From Eledone cirrhosa (lineage: Eukaryota), in the NCBI GenBank assembly GCA_964016885.1, contig OZ024742.1, forward strand, positions 50,902,001-50,966,000: a stretch of DNA of 64,000 nt, read 5' to 3'. The stretch's first letter is position 1; every line of letters starts with the position of its first letter. This document shows positions 6,932-59,869 of the stretch, piece by piece. The notes beneath the pieces are model-generated. The model ran no database searches. It saw only the letters and a program-made list of their open reading frames with translations, and was not told where the DNA came from. A program made the translations under genes and the position numbers.

Positions 6932-8501
6932 CTGAAGGAGTCATCATATTTTCATACATTTATTCACCTCAGTTTGCGGTAGTTATAGTTTTGATCAACC
7001 GTTTTGGAATTTCACGTATCTAGTGGTATATTAATGAAGACTGCAATACGTCCTTTGTGATAGTAAGAAGTCTATTAAACACCTCATTAGAGACACTTAA
7101 GTATTCAAATCATCAGTTAATAGGCACACCACGTTTGAAGATTTAATACAAATAATTTACTCTTTCTTTTCAAGAAAATATTTCGAAGTTAGAGATCTAT
7201 TTCGTCCTCAGTACATGAAGGTTTAATTTTTTCTTCTTGAAAATTTAACAAGAAATATTTTTTGGATTATCTCAATAGGCACTTATATCTACCATATCAG
7301 TGCCTATTCTACCATTATGGCTTCCTGATATTACAGTTACTATGGATTGTAATTAATGGCCATTCATCATCAGTGTTCGCTCTTTTGCACGAAATATCTG
7401 TCTATTCCTCCCGTTAACTAAGTTCCTATCCTAGCTTCTCGATCACAATAAGGTTTCTAATAATTTGCTCTATTCAATTTTATATATTTCAATCTGAAGC
7501 TTCATTAGTTTCGAACTTGATTATGTCTGTATTACTATGACCATGCAATATAGATTATTTTTTTTTAAATTTTAATTTTAATCATGCAATGTGTGTTCGT
7601 GACTGACATAGAGTAAAAGTAAGATTCCAATCAGGCGAGTTTGTGTGCACAAATGGTTTCTATTTCTGATTGGAACTATTCATTATTACATCATTAATGT
7701 CCTTAAATAAGTACCGAGGAACAGAATATATTTATTTGTGGATATCTGTCTTAGGCTGGAGGAATAAATATTTAATGCAATGTCCTCCAAACACAGTTAA
7801 AAAATAAAATAACACCCATACTGAAGAGAAAACTAATGAGCTTAATGAAGGCAAGATAAGCAACCATGAACATGCAGTTTACTCTTAAAAAACAGAATGC
7901 ATATATCTATATGAATAGCCATTATGCTTAATGTTAGTAATGAATAAGTTTAGTACATGCGGCTAGAACGAGATGTACCAAGACAGGTTTATAAAAATCG
8001 ATGTTTTAAATATTATTTGAAATGTTTCAGCCTAGGAAAAAAAATGAAATATTCAAATAAAAGTATATTAGAATCCTATTGTTTCTTTTCGACAACGCTT
8101 CTAATGTAATACAACGCATGTTAACATCAATTAGCTCTCAACGAATACCATGAATATGGATTGATATCCTATAACTGCAGTCTCCTGTAACTAGAAGGAT
8201 GCAAGTGCATTTATCTAACGAATCTAGTATAGATTTGCTTTATTCAGAAATATTAGTTTACATCTCGTATTAACCATCATTATACAAAAATGTAATCGAT
8301 GACAACAGCATCTAATCAATGACAACTCCTTAGAAATCAATTAATTATTTAGACTTCTAAAAATATATGCAAAGTATTCAACAACCATCTTTTTATCGCT
8401 TGATACATTTATCCCTGACGTTATTTTGTGGCCCCAAGTAGGGAAAGGAAGGAAAATGCACCTAATATTTGATGAGGCCAAAGGGCCAGGTTCCTGACAT
8501 A

Positions 8502-9171: not shown

Positions 9172-9780
9172 TCGATTGGCAGTATCGGTAGATAGTCGGA
9201 CGCCATGCTTTCCAGCATAGTTACGTCCCTTTACGGTCTGATTTCAAATCCCTCCGAGGTTTACTTTGCCTTTCATCCTTACGGGGTCGATAAAATAAAG
9301 TACCAGTAATGCACTGGGTATGTTGCTGGCCTTGTGCCTAAAGTAGAAACAATTATTATTATTAATAACAGTGAGGGCGGTGGATTGGCAGTATCGGTAG
9401 AGGGTCGGACGCCATGCTTTGCACCATAGAGTTACGGCCCTTTACTATGTGAGTTCAAATCACGTGGAGGTTAACCTTGCGTTTCATCCTTAAGGCGTCG
9501 ATAAAATAAAGTACTAGACAGGCCCTGGGTCGATTTAATCGATTTTCCCCTCCCCCAAAATTGCTGGCCTTGTAACAATATAAGAAACCATTATTAATAA
9601 GGATTGGCAGTATCGGTAGAGGGTCGGACGCCATGCTTCCAGCATAGTTATGTCCCTTTACGGTCTGAGTTCAAATCGAGGTTAACTTTGCCTTTCATCC
9701 TTACGGGGTCGATAAAATAAAGTACCAGTAATGCACTGGGTAATTGCTGGCCTTGTGCCAAATGTAGAAACAATTATTAA
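9172..9780 (+). mobile_element. Three head-to-tail tRNA-derived SINE copies (9172-9355, 9372-9597, 9601-9780)
   Basis: Each has A-box-like tggcagtatcgg, B-box-like gagttcaaatc, a conserved ctttcatccttacggggtcgataaaataaagtacc block and an attatt tail. Confidence 0.88.
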
Positions 9781-23662: not shown

Positions 23663-23917
23663 CATATATGTATATAAATAGATATAAAACAATATATGTA
23701 ACACACACACATATATATATATACTTACATATATATATATATTGTATGTTATATACATATATATATATATATATATACTACCATCTACAAACTGACCAAT
23801 GAGAATCAAGACTATTCCTGCTGACAACATCAACATATTCCTAACAAGCTCGTATGTCCCAAGGCTCTGATACCATCAACACTTACACACAGACCTGGCA
23901 TATCTAAGAACTGACTA

Positions 23918-23973
23918 ACTGCCTGATGAGGTCATAGCCATTCAATGGCTATCATCGAAATATATATAGCAGT
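23918..23973 (+). ncRNA. Minimal type I hammerhead ribozyme
   Basis: actgc-CTGATGA-ggtcatagcca[ttcaa]tggctatcatc-GAAA-tatata-TA-gcagt, then aataaa. Part of a ~240-bp repeat also found at 34820-35060, 35415-35660 and 35940-36180. Confidence 0.8.
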
Positions 23974-24014
23974 AAATAAAGGATTATGAGTTCATGCAAT
24001 TGACTTATGTTTCG

Positions 24015-24116
<102 letters not shown>

Positions 24117-34705: not shown

Positions 34706-35059
34706 AATACCATAATTACTATATATATATATATAGTAATTAAAAACGTGTTGGTAAAATCCAGTACTTCAGTATGCAGATAGTGAGCACTCAACGAAGA
34801 TATAAATTCCGGAGTTATAATAGTGACGAAACATAAGTCAAATCTATGAACTAATAGTCCTTTATTTATCGCTATATATATTTCGATGATAGATATTGTA
34901 TGGCTATGACCTCATCAGGCAGTCAGTACGTTCTTACATATGCCAGCTCTGGGTTTTTGGTGTTGATGGTTTTAGAGCCTTGCGACATATGAGCTTGTTA
35001 GGGACAATTTAATGTTGTCAGCAGGAACAATCTTAATTCTCATTGGTCAGTTTGTAGAT

Positions 35060-35299
35060 GCAAATATTTCGTGTACATATTCTGCAGCACTGATCTGATT
35101 TCGAATATTTTATATATATTTACACAATGCGCATTGGAGAAATAACTCTGGAATACAACACAAAAGAAACGGACCTTGTAACAGCACCGAATGCTTCGTA
35201 TGATGCATCCTTTGTAACTGTTATTACACAGCTAACCAACACACACACAAACATATATATATTTATATATATATATATATATATATTATATATTATATA

Positions 35300-35362
<63 letters not shown>

Positions 35363-36238
35363 ATATATATATATAAATATATATATATGTGTGTGTGTGT
35401 TGGTTAGCTATATATACTGACAAAACATAAGTCAATTGAATGAAGTCATGATCCTTTATTTACCGCTATATATATTTCGATGATAGACATGGTATGGCTA
35501 TGACACCCATCAGGCAGTCAGTAAGTTCTTAGATATGCCAGCTCTGGGTTTTTAGTGTTGATGGTTTTAGAGCCCTGGGACATATGAGCTTTTTAGGGAC
35601 AATTTAATGTTGTCAGCAGGAATAATCTTAATTCTCATTGGTCAGTTTGTAGATGCTAGTAAGAGTGGTATTTGACATCAAAGATGTCTGTGGTGTTGTA
35701 AAGTTCAAACAGTCAGGCAAGGTGACAATAGTTCCATATGACTGATTTTCACAAAAAGCATTCCTGGTCAGATATATATTCAATTGTAATGATCTTCACA
35801 AAAAGCATTACAATTGAATATATATCTGACCAGGAATGCTTTTTGTGAAAATCAGTCATATGGAACTATTGTCACCTTGCCTGACTGTTTGAACTTTACA
35901 ACACCACAGACATCTTTGATGTCAAATACCACTCTTACTAGCATCTACAAACTGACCAATGAGAATTAAGATTATTCCTGCTGACAACATTAAATTGTCC
36001 CTAAAAAGCTCATATGTCCCAGGGCTCTAAAACCATCAACACTAAAAACCCAGAGCTGGCATATCTAAGAACTTACTGACTGCCTGATGAGGTCATAGCC
36101 ATACCACGTCTATCATCGAAATATATATAGCGGTAAATAAAGGATCATGAGTTCATACAATTGACTTATGTTTTGTCAGTATATATAGCTAACCTACACA
36201 CACAGACAGACACATATATATATTTATATATATATATA

Positions 36239-36337
<99 letters not shown>

Positions 36338-36590
36338 ATATATATAAAATATAATATATAATATATAATATATATATATATAAATATATATATGTTTGTG
36401 TGTGTGTGTTGGTTAGCTGTGTAATAACAGTTACAAAGGATGCATCATACGAACCATTCGGTGCTCTTAGAAGGTCCGTTTCTTTTGTGTTGTATTCTAG
36501 AGTTATTTCTCCAATGCGCATTGTGTAAATATATATATAAAAGATTCGAAATAAGATCACTGCTGCAGAATATGTACACGAAATATTTGC
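35060..36590. repeat. ~1.5-kb nested palindrome centred near 35799, containing HHR copies (35462-35518 minus, 36079-36134 plus; a further copy at 34868-34923 minus)
   Basis: 35410-35792 mirrors 35807-36190, and 35060-35260 mirrors 36390-36590 across the TA tracts. Confidence 0.88.
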
Positions 36591-49552: not shown

Positions 49553-50186
<634 letters not shown>

Positions 50187-50187
<1 letters not shown>

Positions 50188-51336
50188 AATGTAAGTATGC
50201 ATGTATACGTACATACATATATGTATACAGACGTACAGTAGCATGCACATATATATATATATATACATATATATATACATATGCATACAGGTACACATAC
50301 ATATATGCACGTATCAGTTTAGCGGCGCTAACGTCGCTTTGTTCGTTTGTAAACAAACTGAACAGCCTGAATTTATGCCATACGGTGTTAAGGCAACCAC
50401 GTCACCTTTTTGTTCAACACTGACACAGGAACGATGTACTAGTTTCAAGCTTGTTAGCTATCATCAGCACCGTTTACCCATCTGCCAGATAGTTGAACGT
50501 TTGAAAGTATATACTTTCCTTATGAAAATTAACGGCTGAGCAGCCTAATTTGCATATTGAGTGAGTTAAATCGGTCAGGCATACCGAAAACGATAAATTA
50601 AAACAAAATGAAAACGAAATTTCATTTCTCACTCTTAGTATGGCACTTACTTAAATGTAAGTATGCATGTATACGTACATACATATATGTATACAGACGT
50701 ACAGTAGCATGCACATATATATATATATATACATACATATATACATATGCATACAGGTACACATACATATATGCACGTATCAGTTTAGCGGCGCTAACGT
50801 CGCTTTGTTCGTTTGTAAACAAACTGAACAGCCTGAATTTATGCCATACGGTGTTAAGGCAACCACGTCACCTTTTTGTTCAACACTGACACAGGAACGA
50901 TGTACTAGTTTCAAGCTTGTTAGCTATCATCAGCACCGTTTACCCATCTGCCAGATAGTTGAACGTTTGAAAGTATATACTTTCCTTATGAAAATTAACG
51001 GCTGAGCAGCCTAATTTGCATATTGAGTGAGTTAAATCGGTCAGGCATACCGAAAACGATAAATTAAAACAAAATGAAAACGAAATTTCATTTCTCACTC
51101 TTAGTATGGCACTTACTTAAATGTAAGTATGCATGTATACGTACATACATATATGTATACAGACGTACAGTAGCATGCACATATATATATATATATACAT
51201 ACATATATACATATGCATACAGGTACACATACATATATGCACGTATCAGTTTAGTGGCGCTAACGTCGCTTTGTTCGTTTGTAAACAAACTGAACAGCCT
51301 GAATTTATGCCATACGGTGTTAAGGCAACCACGTCA

Positions 51337-51372
<36 letters not shown>

Positions 51373-53012
51373 TTCAACACTGACACAGGAACGATGTACT
51401 AGTTTCAAGCTTGTTAGCTATCATCAGCACCGTTTACCCATCTGCCAGATAGTTGAACGTTTGAAAGTATATACTTTCCTTATGAAAATTAACGGCTGAG
51501 CAGCCTAATTTGCATATTGAGTGAGTTAAATCGGTCAGGCATACCGAAAACGATAAATTAAAACAAAATGAAAACGAAATTTCATTTCTCACTCTTAGTA
51601 TGGCACTTACTTAAATGTAAGTATGCATGTATACGTACATACATATATGTATACAGACGTACAGTAGCATGCACATATATATATATATATACATACATAT
51701 ATACATATGCATACAGGTACACATACATATATGCACGTATCAGTTTAGCGGCGCTAACGTCGCTTTGTTCGTTTGTAAACAAACTGAACAGCCTGAATTT
51801 ATGCCATACGGTGTTAAGGCAACCACGTCACCTTTTTGTTCAACACTGACACAGGAACGATGTACTAGTTTCAAGCTTGTTAGCTATCATCAGCACCGTT
51901 TACCCATCTGCCAGATAGTTGAACGTTTGAAAGTATATACTTTCCTTATGAAAATTAACGGCTGAGCAGCCTAATTTGCATATTGAGTGAGTTAAATCGG
52001 TCAGGCATACCGAAAACGATAAATTAAAACAAAATGAAAACGAAATTTCATTTCTCACTCTTAGTATGGCACTTACTTAAATGTAAGTATGCATGTATAC
52101 GTACATACATATATGTATACAGACGTACAGTAGCATGCACATATATATATATATATACATACATATATACATATGCATACAGGTACACATACATATATGC
52201 ACGTATCAGTTTAGCGGCGCTAACGTCGCTTTGTTCGTTTGTAAACAAACTGAACAGCCTGAATTTATGCCATACGGTGTTAAGGCAACCACGTCACCTT
52301 TTTGTTCAACACTGACACAGGAACGATGTACTAGTTTCAAGCTTGTTAGCTATCATCAGCACCGTTTACCCATCTGCCAGATAGTTGAACGTTTGAAAGT
52401 ATATACTTTCCTTATGAAAATTAACGGCTGAGCAGCCTAATTTGCATATTGAGTGAGTTAAATCGGTCAGGCATACCGAAAACGATAAATTAAAACAAAA
52501 TGAAAACGAAATTTCATTTCTCACTCTTAGTATGGCACTTACTTAAATGTAAGTATGCATGTATACGTACATACATATATGTATACAGACGTACAGTAGC
52601 ATGCACATATATATATATATATACATACATATATACATATGCATACAGGTACACATACATATATGCACGTATCAGTTTAGCGGCGCTAACGTCGCTTTGT
52701 TCGTTTGTAAACAAACTGAACAGCCTGAATTTATGCCATACGGTGTTGCCTTAACACCGTATGGCATAAATTCAGGCTGTTCAGTTTGTTTACAAACGAA
52801 CAAAGCGACGTTAGCGCCGCTAAACTGATACGTGCATATATGTATGTGTACCTGTATGCATATGTATATATATATGTATATATATATATATATGTGCATG
52901 CTACTGTACGTCTGTATACATATATGTATGTACGTATACATGCATACTTACATTTAAGTAAGTGCCATACTAAGAGTGAGAAATGAAATTTCGTTTTCAT
53001 TTTGTTTTAATT

Positions 53013-53013
<1 letters not shown>
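50187..53013 (-). mobile_element. Tandem array of 466-bp units (~5.5 copies) plus terminal inverted partial unit; putative non-LTR retrozyme
   Basis: Periods are 466, 494, 466 and 466 (starts 50608, 51074, 51568, 52034, 52500). One minus-strand HHR per unit. Inversion at about 52750. Confidence 0.88.
50430..50474 (-). ncRNA. Minimal type I hammerhead ribozyme (identical copies at 50896-50940, 51390-51434, 51856-51900, 52322-52366)
   Basis: aacggtg-CTGATGA-t-agct[aaca]agct-t-GAAA-ctag-TA-catcgtt: 7-bp stem I, canonical core, palindromic ACTAGT stem III, GUA cleavage triplet. Confidence 0.85.
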
Positions 53014-53350
<337 letters not shown>

Positions 53351-54802: not shown

Positions 54803-57263
54803 AAGGCGGGTAAAATTCCCGAGAGCCATGGACGAGTTCTCTCCAGCGGTCTCTGTCCCTCATTATCGCTGCCATATCCTGCATCTCCAACAGACCAGTG
54901 TCTGTCCTTAGGGCATCAACATATGTTAACCTTGGTCTTCCTCTTCTAGTGTGTCCATGTAGGGGCTCCCAAAGGAGCACTGAGTGCAATGTCAACTCTG
55001 GATGTCGGTGAGCATGTCCAGCCAACCTCAGTCTCCTCTGTGTCAATTTTGAGCTGACTTTTGGGATGCTCCCATACAGCTCTGAGTTTTTCATCCTCAG
55101 TGTATACTGATTAATGTTCAGAGCCATCCTCAGCATTCTCGTGTAGCACCCATCCACCATCTGAGTGAGTCTCTTGGTCAGTCTCCAAGTCTCAGACCCA
55201 TACAGCAGCACAGACTCCACTACAGCAATGAAGAGGCAGATTTTCAAGTCTCTACGAAGGTCCGACTTCCACACCGATCTCAAGCTGTGACACGCCGCCC
55301 AGGCCTTGCTCTTCCTCTCAACCACATCATCTTCCGTATTCCCAATCTTTGCTCCCAAATACAGGAAGTCCTCAACCAATTCCAGCGGCTTCCCGCCTAC
55401 ATTAGTGATCCCCTCTGGCTTCTCAACATTCTCTAACAGATATTTTGTTTTAGTCTCATTCATTCTCAACCCCACACTCATCGACACAGTCTCAACCTCC
55501 CGCATCAAATCCTCTGCCTCCTTCACTGTATTTGTCACCAAAACTATGTCGTCGGCAAATTCAGCATCCGATACCTTTTTCGCCCTAACCCTCCTGCTCT
55601 GAGCCGGTGCTACAGTAAAGCCAGTGTCCTGGTGTTTCTCCAGTGCAAGGCGCATACAATAGTCCACTACGATGATAAAAAGGTAGGGAGCCAATGTATC
55701 TCCCTGGAGCACTCCAGCCAGTATCTCAAAGAACTCTGTCATCCCATCAGGTGTAATGACTTGGGCTTTGGTGTTGGTGTAGAGCAGTTATATCAGGTCC
55801 ACTATCCTCTTGGCGATTCCATAAGCCTGTAAGATCTTCATCAGGCAGTAACGGTCCACAGAATCAAAGGCCTTCCTAAAGTCAATGAAAACAATGACCG
55901 CAGGAAGGCACTTTGCTCTAGCTCCCTCTAATATCCTCCTCAGCATCAGGATGTGACTGGTGGTTGATCTACCCTCTCTGAAGCCGTTCTGGTTGTCCCT
56001 GAGCTTCTTCTCCATCTCAGGCTGGATCCTGTTAAGAATCATCCTGTTGAGGGTCTTTGCCACAAGTGACGTCAGTGAGATCCCCCGGTAGTTGTTGGTG
56101 TTAGAGAGATCTCCCTTCTTTGGCACTGGGACGATGTTACTGATCCTCCACTGATTCGGGGCAACTCCTTTCTCCAGTGCCCCGTTACAGAACCCCAGGA
56201 TGATATAATCAAAATCACACCTCTTCATCACCTCTGATGCCACTCCATCTTCTCCATGAGCCTTGCCCTCCGTGATCTTCTTCTTGGCTCTCTGAAGCAC
56301 CTCTCTGGTGAAGGGCTCTGTCTCAACATCCAGTTCCTCAAACAGCCGCCTGATCTCCCCAGTGTTCTGGGCTGTGGAGGGTGGCTCTCCTAGTAGGGTC
56401 CTAAAATGGTCTAGCCATTTCCTCTTCCTATCCTCGGGCCCCGTTCCCTGGATCTGACTCGAACACCTTTTCTTCCTCCCTGTGATCTCGTTGATGATCA
56501 TCCAGCTCTCCTTACATCCAGATCTATCAACCGCTCTCTCCACACTTCTGATCTTCTCTATCAGTGCCTCCTCTCTGACCTCAGTGTAAGCTGTACAGAG
56601 CTCTTCCCTCATCACCTCCACAGTCTCCATCCTCTCCTCCGTAGGATCAGCATAGAATTGGTCCCTGGCAGCTTTCAGGTATTCTCTGGCTGCACACACT
56701 TTTGGGTTTGCAGAGCTGACGTGCTTCCCTTTGTTCTTTTTCCTCGGCACCAAGGATTCACTTGCTTTCGCCACTGCATTGGTGAAGTGCCCGTACCTCC
56801 TCGTCACACTCTCCTCAGTCCATCCAATCTCTCTCTCCTCTGATTCTCCACACAGAGCACTAAACCTGTTTCTCACTTCCACTGTGAACCTCTCCTGTAG
56901 CTTATCATCTTCCTTGAAAGCTCCCCAGTCATAGATTGTTCTCCGGGGCTGAGCCTTGCTCTTTCTTAAGCTCACGCGGACCTCACTCATAACAAGCCGG
57001 TGGTCACTACCCAGTGTACTGAAATAGCAGTATGGTTCCGTGTTCAGAACACTATTCCGCCACTTTTTCCTCACCAGAATGAAATCAATCTGGGACTTGG
57101 ACAGGTGCATATCTGAGATGTTGGTCCAAATCTTCCCCAGATTCTTCCTAAACCTTAGGTTGGTCGCCATCAAGTTCGCCTCAAGTCTTCCATTTCGGTT
57201 GGTGTTGTTATGGAAGTACCGGCAAGGATCTTCACTGCCCTCCTTACTCAGATGTGCATTGAA
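54801..57263 (-). mobile_element. Young 5'-truncated RTE/RTE-X-like LINE (APE C-terminal part plus complete RT), one frameshift near 55790
   Basis: FNAH, IDFILV, SDHRLV, VPKKGD..NYRGISL, NQNGFR, FIDFRKAFDSV, GVLQGDTLAPYLF, EFADD, FLYLG and LYGSETW motifs. Both ends lie in (TA)n. Confidence 0.93.
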
Positions 57264-57320
<57 letters not shown>

Positions 57321-57455
57321 CAAAACGGCGCGTCATATACATATTTATATATTAATTTATTTGCTCTACGGTTCTTATATATTTGATATATATTTATTCT
57401 TATCGAGCCCTCTTTGGACGTCTGTCTTCAATTTTATTATTATTACTATATATAC

Positions 57456-58848
57456 ATATAAGTATGTATACGTAAATACACATATGTATACAGACGTACA
57501 GTAGTATGTATATATATATATATACATACATGCACACATATATATATCTACGTATGGGTTCACCAAAAAAGTATTATAATGCTCGGTGTGTTTGTAAACA
57601 AACATCCCGTATTAAGCAGTAGTGTCTAGCAACCACCGTTGCTCGTTTGTTCAACACTGACAAAGGAACGCTGTACTAGTTTTAAACGTTTTAGCTATCG
57701 TCCGCAACGTATACCTTCCTGTCAGATAGTTGAACGTCCGAAAGTATATATTTTCCTTATGCATATTAACGGCTGAGTAGCCCAATTTGCATGTTGAGTG
57801 GGTTAATCGGCCGGGTGCACCGAAAACGTTAAACGGAAAAAATGAAACGAAATTTCATTTCCCACTCTTAGTACGGCTGTTACTTAAATATAAGTATGTA
57901 TACGTACATATACATATGTATACAAACATACAGTAGTATGTATATATATACATAGAAGTACACATATATATATGTACGTATGGATTCACCAAACATTTAT
58001 TATAATGCTCGGTGTGTTTGTAAACAAACATCCCGTATTAAACCGTAGTGTCTAGCAACCACCGTTCCTCGTTTATTCAACACTGACAAAGGAACACTGT
58101 ACTAGTTTCAAGTTTGTTAGCTATCGTCAGCAACATATACCTTCCTGCCAGATAGTTGAACGTCAGAAAGTATATACTTTCCTTTTGCATATTAACGGCT
58201 GAGTAGCCAATTTGTTTACAAACACACCGAGACTTATAGTGAATGTTTGGTGAATCCATACGTACATATATATATATGTGTGCATGTATGTATATATATA
58301 TATATACATACTACTGTACGTCTTTATACATATGTGTATGTACGTATACATACTTATATTTAAGTAACAGCCGTACTAATTGTAGGAAATGAAATTTCGT
58401 TTCATGTTTTTCCGTTTATCGTGTTCGGTACACCCGAACGATTAACCCACTCAATATGCAAATTGGGCTACTCAGCTGTTAATATGCATACGGAAAGTAT
58501 ATACTTCCGGACGTTCAACTATCTGGCAGGAAGGTATACGTTGCTGACGATAGCTAACAAGCTTGAAACTTGTACAGCGTTCCTTTGTCAGTGTTGAACA
58601 AACGAACAACGGTGGTTGCTAGACACTGTACGGCTTAATACGGGATATTTGTTTACAAACACACCGAGCATTATAATAAATGTTTGTTGAATCCATACGT
58701 ACATATATATATGTTTGCATGTATGTATATATATATATATACATACTACTGTACGTCTGTATACATATGTGTATGTACGTATACATACTTATATTTAAGG
58801 AACAGCCGTACTAAGATTGGGAAATGAAATTTCGTTTAATTGTTTCCG

Positions 58849-58851
<3 letters not shown>
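57456..58851. mobile_element. Diverged sister retrozyme array (~430-bp unit), ~1.7 units plus ~1.5 inverted units
   Basis: Colinear with the 466-bp unit. HHRs at about 57668-57710 (minus, mutated), 58095-58135 (minus) and 58538-58580 (plus). Inversion at about 58210. Confidence 0.82.
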
Positions 58852-58936
<85 letters not shown>

Positions 58937-59398
58937 CATACATACATACATACCTACATACATACATGCATACATACATACACACACACACGCACACACA
59001 CACACGATGGCTAAGTAGCGAAACTCATTACTCTGGCGTTTCACATCCGCACGCAAAGGTTCATCAGCTGAGTTTTACTCTGTATTTACTAGGTATTGAG
59101 TACTCTTTCATGTTCGTCAATAATTCAAGTATATTTATATACTTTTTTTACTCTTTTACTCAATTACCTGTTCCAGCCATCTGGCTGAGATCATGCTAGG
59201 GCACCGCCCTTATATTTATATATATATATATATGTATATCGGATAACAAGTTATTGTTATAGGTAATCCAGTTAGAGGTTGTGGGTACTCTGCGTCGTGG
59301 ATAGTTTTAACGTAGGGCTTTGTTTGATTCAACACGATGCTTCCATAGTTATGCAGCGAGTTCGCAGTAATTTCTATGCAGGTTATACTTTGAGTAAT

Positions 59399-59869
59399 AA
59401 TAGTTAAAGAATGAAGAGTAACATGGTTGGCTGTACAATAAGGGCTTTATTTAAAGTACTGACAATTGTTTCGTCGATCAGGTGAGTCTAGAGTTCGCTA
59501 ATCGCTTGAGGTTGCGTTATTCGATCTCCAATACATTATTTACCTCCGAGTTCAAATCCCGCCGAGGTTGTCTTTGCCTTTCACCCTTACGAGGTCAATA
59601 AAATAAAGTACCAGTAATTTACTGGATAATTGCTGGCCTTGTGCCTAAAGTAGAAACAATTATTTACCTCTGGTCAACACATCAGAGTACGTAGATATCT
59701 ACGTACTCTGATGTGTTGACCAGAGAAAAATAATGTATCGGAGATCGAATGATGCAACCTCAAGCGATTAGCGAACTCTAGACTTACCTGATCAACGAAA
59801 CAATTGTCAGTACTTTAAATATAGCTCTTATTGCCCAGCCAACCATATTACTCTTCATTCTTTAACTAT
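59399..59869. mobile_element. Fold-back element with HHR (59703-59813 plus; mirror 59456-59690 interrupted by a SINE)
   Basis: Perfect centre gtacgtagatatctacgtac. Motif gtact-CTGATGT-gttgaccag...ctgatcaac-GAAA-caattg-TC-agtac. Confidence 0.8.
59547..59658 (+). mobile_element. 5'-truncated SINE with 12-bp target-site duplication
   Basis: attatttacctc at 59535-59546 and 59659-59670. The SINE is absent from the mirror arm. Confidence 0.88.

What the first reader, a model, noticed from the sequence alone, without database searches (positions are those of the whole stretch)
57456..58851. Diverged sister array gives covariation support for the ribozyme fold
Seen: a ~430-bp homolog 4.5 kb away. 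Its plus-strand HHR (58538-58580) reads acguug-CUGACGA-uagcuaacaagcuu-GAAA-cuug-UA-cagcgu. The core changes only at the variable N of CUGANGA. A stem I G-U pair becomes U-G through changes on both strands, and the distal helix becomes ggaa/uucc (or aagg/ccuu) while cuggca/ugucag and guucaac/guugaac are kept. Inference: selection on RNA structure rather than on DNA or protein, and two independent insertions of two subfamilies.
Basis: partly seen in the sequence, partly recalled or inferred. Interest (0 to 1): 0.75.

Follow-up and report, generated by a model that had tools for sequence, protein, structure and literature searches.

The report
Selected hammerhead fold in retrozyme lineages
This is a decayed copy of a 426-base repeat found tens of thousands of times in this animal genome; its lineages keep the catalytic core of a hammerhead-type RNA fixed and swap both partners of base pairs, which likely reflects selection for self-cutting in a known kind of passenger element probably spread by Penelope-type retrotransposons.

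Summary
Mostly confirmed, and ordinary in kind. 57453-58849 is a two-armed insertion of a 426-bp type I hammerhead repeat, 4.4 kb from an independent 466-bp sister array. The stem I G·U/U·G swap is real. But 'core changes only at N' holds only for lineages: here one copy has a dead core, one shows CpG-type decay, and the quoted copy has a private break in its stem III palindrome. The genome holds 40,100 exact cores. In 73 insertions sampled outside the ribozyme, 0 of 15 core columns carry a lineage-level change, against 25 of 73 flank columns (p=0.005). A distant family keeps 18 of 18 proximal pairs through 7 double changes. G17, which blocks cleavage, is 0.6%. Caveats: most double changes lie on one branch, one 'covarying' distal pair is mismatched in five lineages, R-scape was not run, and no RNA data exist. 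Insertion ends carry a Penelope-like footprint. Verdict: new member of the non-LTR retrozymes. Compensatory change in such repeats is published (PMC2837043). The scan already noted this architecture and similar covariation elsewhere in this genome. Odd feature: the largest clade has U·U where hammerheads keep G10.1-C11.1.

The parts
57453..58214 (-). Minus arm of family-B retrozyme insertion, 1.8 units of 426 bp; outer end at fixed site 1 (57453)
58211..58849 (+). Plus arm, 1.5 units; outer end at fixed site 2, about 55 nt beyond site 1 (Penelope-like 'tail'), followed by (TA)n
58211..58214 (.). Inner head-to-head junction with 4-nt overlap of the two arms
58538..58580 (+).
58513..58599 (+). 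Extended stem I domain (aagg/ccuu, cuggca/ugucag, guucaac/guugaac)
58569..58572 (+). Stem III loop CUUG: private change at 58571 breaks the family's ACUAGU palindrome
58094..58136 (-). Second hammerhead copy: core intact, CpG-type changes in stem I, one stem II pair broken
57668..57710 (-). Third hammerhead copy: core broken (U4>G, G12>A), predicted inactive
58456..58463 (+). Octamer-like word ATGCAAAT about 85 nt upstream of the core; its TATGCA part is invariant across lineages (also 57785-57792 on minus)
   Evidence: the name 'octamer' is recalled
58798..58849 (+). Tail between the two fixed ends, with a hairpin kept in families A, B and D
50186..52747 (-). Sister array (family A), minus arm, 5.4 units of 466 bp with five intact hammerheads (cores at 52359, 51893, 51427, 50933, 50467; stem I G·U)
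52745..53015 (+). Sister array plus arm (271 bp) ending at fixed site 2

Best explanation
The stretch is a decayed two-armed insertion of a non-coding hammerhead-bearing repeat (a non-LTR retrozyme), whose source lineages were likely selected to keep a self-cleaving RNA fold and were likely copied into the genome by Penelope-type reverse transcriptase. Steps: (1) SHOWN: about 40,000 intact cores in 426-470-bp units, in at least 13 close lineages plus a distant family. (2) SHOWN statistically: the core, the stem III palindrome and stem II never change at lineage level, while stems I and II change in compensated pairs. (3) INFERRED: multi-unit transcripts cleave through a double hammerhead (two ACUAGU palindromes pairing), and monomers are ligated to circles by a host ligase, as shown for other metazoan retrozymes. 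(4) INFERRED: a Penelope-like RT/GIY-YIG protein cuts (TA)n DNA and primes from both DNA ends at two fixed internal RNA sites 55-70 nt apart. It reads through the cleavage junction, and the two cDNAs join head to head. (5) SHOWN for this locus: the copies then decay, so the signal of selection sits in lineage differences and not in these three copies.
For: Counts: 28,412 + 11,688 cores with A or C/U at position 17, against 222 with G (42 of the 100 listed lie in one local array). Sample anchored outside the ribozyme (99 copies in 73 insertions after dropping 2 non-homologous rows of 101): 95 of 99 are paired at the stem I site (43 G·U, 38 U·G, 13 A-U, 1 C-G); lineage-level alleles in 0 of 15 core+stem III columns against 25 of 73 flank columns (p=0.005), and 0 of 23 with stem II (p=0.0006); shared versus singleton 0/9 against 28/48 (p=0.027). 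Family D is homologous over the whole unit, 50-63% identical in the ribozyme region; lineage F versus D keeps 18 of 18 proximal pairs through 7 double and 2 wobble changes (0 of 200,000 simulations) and 23 of 27 over the whole domain (P=1e-5). On 20 real copies 92% of cells pair, against 35-49% for slid controls. An independent DNA run shows variants at or above 5% only at N7, loop 2, the stem I pair and the private stem III site within 58538-58580 (7 rows not shown). Ends: one end at each fixed site in 14 of 16 complete B insertions (29 loci), 4 of 4 A (9 loci), 9 of 10 D (19 loci). RT plus GIY-YIG ORFs exist in the genome, two with the same mirrored layout. Two internal RT starts explain the PLE tail in vitro (PMC11167929, passages).
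Against: No RNA, cleavage or circle was observed. The tool's two relatedness-robust measures do not beat shuffles (pairs with double change 12 vs 10.2, 84/500; pair types 382/500): most double changes sit on the single branch to D, so independent events number about ten. The 18-pair set was chosen after seeing the alignment. Pair 22-76 is A·G in five lineages. U10.1·U11.1 replaces a pair described as highly conserved (PMC4209133, passage) and may lower activity. In Xenopus 8 of 9 predicted retrozyme dimers did not cleave in vitro (preprint), and HHR cleavage was dispensable for a Poseidon PLE in vitro. No sequence link was found between the repeat and 50 GIY-YIG loci, so the driver is unidentified. 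No significant A>G strand skew (38 vs 24, p=0.16). The tail (55-70 nt) is longer than the 30-40 bp described for PLEs.
Confidence: 0.8

Rival explanations
1. The RNA fold is selected, but for recognition by the Penelope protein or for processing linear read-through transcripts. Arrays are copied from uncut multimeric RNA and no circle is made.
For: Arms run across cleavage sites, which uncut linear RNA also allows. A Poseidon PLE used unprocessed RNA in vitro and showed no RNA-seq ends at its HHR site. Inner (5') ends are scattered with no peak at the cleavage site.
Against: Unpaired catalytic nucleotides and the not-G rule at position 17 are kept, which argues for catalysis and not just shape. 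Units within young arrays are near-identical, as expected from repeated copying of one monomer.
Confidence: 0.13
2. A DNA-level satellite or palindromic element: the apparent covariation is a few founder mutations spread by amplification, with hairpins selected (if at all) on single-stranded DNA.
For: Few independent events. Each state at the stem I pair can trace to one founder. Local DNA amplification of a non-cleavable variant occurs (C3:12.27-12.30 Mb). Inter-lineage chimeras exist (9 of 264 rows).
Against: Exact hammerhead core with variation only at N7 and H17. Repeated G·U and U·G states that pair only on the sense strand. Mismatched states at the stem I pair total about 300 exact copies (182 U·U; 121 A·G or G·G) against about 6,600 U·G alone. 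Fixed two-site ends and dispersal over many chromosomes.
Confidence: 0.05
3. The repeat is mobilised by a LINE, such as the RT fragment lying between the two arrays.
For: A LINE-type RT fragment lies at 54804-57260. LINEs were named as possible helpers (PMC7229834 Discussion).
Against: No poly(A) or shared 3' end. Both outer ends are 3' ends at fixed internal sites, the PLE pattern. I did not screen other loci for such a LINE.
Confidence: 0.02

Closest known systems
Metazoan non-LTR retrozymes (Cervera & de la Peña 2020, PMC7229834: 12 passages and part 4 of 6 read; Li, Clavereau & Pollet 2026, bioRxiv 10.64898/2026.07.22.740005: parts 1-3 of 5 read)
   Same: Non-coding tandem units, each with a type I hammerhead; low GC; dispersed monomers to multimers; co-occurrence with PLEs; short palindromic stem III implying dimer cleavage.
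   Different: Unit 426-470 bp (about 300 bp typical, within the 51-972 range of the preprint); regular two-armed head-to-head insertions with two fixed ends, not mentioned in the parts read; U10.1·U11.1 in the main clade; no homologous PLE pLTR found here; expression and circles not shown.
pDo500 hammerhead satellite of Dolichopoda cave crickets (PMC2837043; 7 passages read)
   Same: About 500-bp repeat with a hammerhead more conserved than its flanks, compensatory changes in stems I and II, double-hammerhead model.
   Different: There, 198 PCR sequences across species; here, genome-wide copy counts for each pair state within one genome, with a Penelope-type insertion footprint.
Penelope-like elements and their pLTR hammerheads (PMC8557442 passages; PMC4209133 part 1 of 4 and passages; PMC11167929 passages)
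   Same: Inverted 5'-truncated copy, tail at one end only, (TA)n targets, hammerheads on opposite strands 100-700 bp apart, families 'full of covariations'.
   Different: No ORF; multi-unit arms; canonical-type helix I (6 bp) and II (4 bp) rather than the minimal PLE motif; longer tail; G10.1-C11.1 absent in the main clade.

Membership tests
Type I hammerhead ribozyme | Core CUGANGA / GAAA / UH around three stems | tested here: met
   met for the family and for the copies at 58544 and 58130, not for 57704
Type I hammerhead ribozyme | H17 is not G | tested here: met
   222 of 40,322 exact cores have G
Type I hammerhead ribozyme | G10.1-C11.1 pair closing stem II | tested here: not met
   U·U in lineages A, B, C, F; C·A in E; G-C only in D. 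Described as highly conserved, not as absolute
Type I hammerhead ribozyme | Stem III (here only through a palindromic dimer) | tested here: met
   ACUAGU fixed in all lineages, dimer helix -6.8 kcal/mol; broken in the quoted copy
Type I hammerhead ribozyme | Self-cleavage | not testable with these tools
   Needs an in vitro assay
Rfam hammerhead families | Match at gathering score | tested here: not met
   0 matches in the window; the E-value mode was not run
Non-LTR retrozyme | Tandem non-coding units, one type I hammerhead each, dispersed in the genome | tested here: met
Non-LTR retrozyme | [quoted passage not shown] | tested here: not met
   Not met at 57453-58849; met by the sister array and by other B arrays
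Non-LTR retrozyme | Expressed as linear and circular monomer RNA | not testable with these tools
   No suitable RNA data (see Tried and rejected)
Non-autonomous Penelope-like element | Inverted 5'-truncated arm and tail at one end | tested here: met
   14 of 16, 4 of 4 and 9 of 10 complete insertions
Non-autonomous Penelope-like element | Insertion in (TA)n or AT-rich targets | tested here: met
   Both window arrays; not counted over all loci
Non-autonomous Penelope-like element | Sequence shared with the pLTR of an autonomous PLE | tested here: inconclusive
   None in 50 loci fetched from the 150 scored of 10,597 GIY-YIG candidates

The most novel reading that the evidence does not exclude
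The genome is a fossil fitness screen of a natural ribozyme. Copy numbers of each base-pair state show that hammerhead cleavage is required for this element to move, through an RNA circle that Penelope enzymes copy from both sides of a DNA break. Its most successful clade (about 28,000 copies) does so with U10.1·U11.1 in place of the canonical G-C, and crossed from G·U to U·G through a rare mismatched intermediate that is still visible (U·U in 10 of 100 listed copies of the bridging lineage, against about 0.6% overall).
Probability: 0.35. Interest if true: 0.7.

Novelty: new member of a known kind. Interest (0 to 1): 0.4.

Why it matters
It turns a two-sequence hint into a within-genome test that the catalytic core and not just the shape is under selection. 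That is indirect evidence that self-cleavage matters for retrozyme mobility, a step proposed but not shown in the papers read. Young intact arrays of three families, with different stem I, 10.1-11.1 and cleavage-triplet states and known copy numbers, give ready constructs to ask whether cleavage rate predicts transposition success. The class, the Penelope link and compensatory change in hammerhead repeats are already in print.

Tried and rejected
(1) Expression: no RNA holder listed; four guessed-RNA runs covered only the simple-repeat part. This says nothing either way. Two of four DNA runs laid nothing on the B domain. (2) RNA-editing scars: no significant A>G excess in 155 copies of the 231-nt region. 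(3) Arm ends at the cleavage site: alignment artefacts of A copies against a B reference. (4) Chimeras breaking at the cleavage site: 0 of 5 unselected chimeras span it, and the 4 others were selected on the mismatch. (5) A clean U·U intermediate lineage: U·U copies sit between F and B with 57-66% support and are enriched in the F background (10 of the first 100 of 532, counted by hand). But G·G also occurs there (2 of 100, one in the same insertion as a U·U arm), and many U·U copies are on a B background, so recombination or point mutation explain part. (6) Rooting with family D is unreliable (long branch). (7) My first reading that copies mutate equally in core and flank included two non-homologous rows; searches are superseded: core+stem III 9/927 versus flank 47/2667 (p=0.12), stems 27/3178 (p=0.002). 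(8) The lineage ladder (0 core changes versus 89 in flanks) is circular for the core, because rows were picked by an intact core; not used for that claim. (9) Autonomous partner not found. (10) Literature searches for octopus or cephalopod with hammerhead (organism guessed, not determined), retrozyme with covariation, G10.1/C11.1 variants and newt satellite 2 promoter listed no paper describing this family or U10.1·U11.1. Only listings were seen, the library lacks most subscription papers, and supplements (closed for the preprint, unread for the others) may list such families.

Full report
OBSERVATION. The quoted motif is at 58538-58580 on the plus strand. It belongs to a 426-bp unit present as two opposed arms, minus 57453-58214 and plus 58211-58849, 91% alike and overlapping by 4 nt. 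The sister element, 4,438 bp upstream, has the same plan: a minus arm of 5.4 units of 466 bp (50186-52747) and a 271-bp plus arm. Over the 87-nt ribozyme domain the two differ at 9 positions, against 90 of 335 outside it (p=0.001). Five differences fall on paired positions and all 27 pairs are kept: G·U/U·G in stem I, U·G/A-U and G·U/A-U in the distal helix (simulated P=0.003). Rfam gave no match at gathering score.

Only one of the three hammerheads of this insertion was quoted. The copy at 57704 has U4>G and G12>A, the copy at 58130 has CpG-type changes and a broken stem II pair, and the quoted copy has CUUG instead of CUAG. Stem III here has two pairs and a 2-nt loop, so by the published model it works as a dimer through the ACUAGU palindrome (PMC4209133). 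The CUUG change weakens that helix from -6.8 to -2.2 kcal/mol and is private. This locus is therefore probably dead.

THE FAMILY. The window lies in a 3.0-Gb animal genome. The core pattern with a 14-nt stem II matches exactly 28,412 times ending in A (control 2), 11,688 times ending in C or U, and 222 times ending in G, the base that by the NUH rule (recalled) blocks cleavage; 42 of the 100 listed G copies are one local array. Sorting by diagnostic columns gave 13 close lineages and a distant family D, homologous over the whole unit but 50-63% identical around the ribozyme.

THE COVARIATION TEST. To avoid picking copies by their core, I anchored on a 27-nt word outside the ribozyme (19,983 matches) and read the first 100 places: 101 copies, 99 in 73 insertions after removing two rows that leave the element before or inside the ribozyme. 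Alleles shared by four or more insertions occur in 0 of 15 core and stem III columns, 0 of 8 stem II columns and 25 of 73 flank columns (p=0.005; p=0.0006 with stem II); shared versus singleton gives p=0.027. Private changes do hit the core (14 of 73 insertions are broken) at about half the flank rate, not significantly different (p=0.12), and stems are lower (p=0.002). On 20 real representative copies, 92% of cells pair, against 79.7% in shuffles and 35-49% in slid controls, and 12 of 28 pairs show double changes. But the pair-count and pair-type measures do not exceed shuffles (84/500, 382/500), because most double changes lie on the one branch to D. On that branch 7 double and 2 wobble changes keep all 18 proximal pairs (set chosen after viewing), and 23 of 27 pairs over the whole domain (P=1e-5). 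The stem I site shows U-A, U·G, A-U and G·U in different lineages. Mismatched versions are rare: 182 U·U and 121 A·G or G·G, against 6,683 matches of which 99 of 100 listed are U·G. The distal A-U/U·G pair is weak evidence, being A·G in five lineages. R-scape was not available.

PATH OF THE SWAP. U·U copies are 10 of the first 100 listed in the bridging background and fall between lineages F and B with weak support. But G·G copies and chimeras exist too, so an intermediate lineage is possible, not shown.

MECHANISM. In complete head-to-head insertions one outer end lies at site 1 and the other at site 2: 14 of 16 in B (whose query favoured site 2), 4 of 4 in A, 9 of 10 in D, while inner ends scatter. 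The sites are 55, 59 and about 70 nt apart. Short blocks at site 1, a tail hairpin near site 2 and an octamer-like word are conserved across families. This matches the inverted copy, tail and (TA)n bias of PLEs (PMC8557442) and the two internal RT starts with extension on both DNA strands shown for an anole Poseidon (PMC11167929). RT plus GIY-YIG ORFs are present, two in the same mirrored layout, but none of 50 loci shares sequence with the repeat. I infer transcription, dimer cleavage, host ligation (shown for axolotl and mussel retrozymes), two-sided priming by a PLE enzyme and rolling reverse transcription. None of these steps was observed. Against: cleavage was dispensable for the Poseidon in vitro, and 8 of 9 Xenopus dimers did not cleave.

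COMPARISON AND NOVELTY. It works like, and by the sequence criteria tested is, a metazoan non-LTR retrozyme with a PLE footprint. Conserved core with compensatory stems in a hammerhead repeat was reported for cricket pDo500 and for PLE hammerheads. I had the two fixed ends before consulting the scan's notes, which report the same architecture at several loci of this genome and similar covariation in a 320-bp family (unchecked AI notes). Verdict: real, new member of a known kind, interest 0.4.

Noticed in passing
window 34813-36590 and 23776-24091: Another two-armed element with an unrelated hammerhead-like family (cores at 34918 minus, 36084 plus, 23923 plus; stem III AUAUAU-type), arms 90% alike.
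   Followed up: partly
window 59035-59075 (minus): A different type I hammerhead-like motif just beyond the B array (core at 59067), unrelated in sequence.
   Followed up: no
window 59400-59869: Inverted repeat (93%) around a 120-bp core that recurs at 9237, 10460, 10654, 18285 and 34522.
   Followed up: no
window 54804-57260 (minus): 5'-truncated LINE-type RT gene in two frames, broken near 55788, between the two arrays.
   Followed up: partly
window 51339-51371: One unit of the young sister array has T33 in place of T5 just beyond the distal helix.
   Followed up: no
G000:C3:12272007-12297956: Long local array (42 or more units) of a variant with G at the cleavage position and a broken stem II: local amplification of a predicted-dead ribozyme.
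   Followed up: no
L371 (G000:C1:255131269 and 255131789): One insertion with U·U at the stem I pair in one arm and G·G in the other, the two reciprocal mismatches.
   Followed up: partly
L336:2760-6025, L326:1489-5237: Penelope-type elements with mirrored arms (L326 with RT and GIY-YIG, L336 with GIY-YIG). L336 has its own small hammerhead downstream of the ORF and a tail of roughly 30 nt on one arm.
   Followed up: partly
window 7170-7215 (minus): Weak isolated hammerhead-like core at 7211, no homolog in the window; possibly chance.
   Followed up: no
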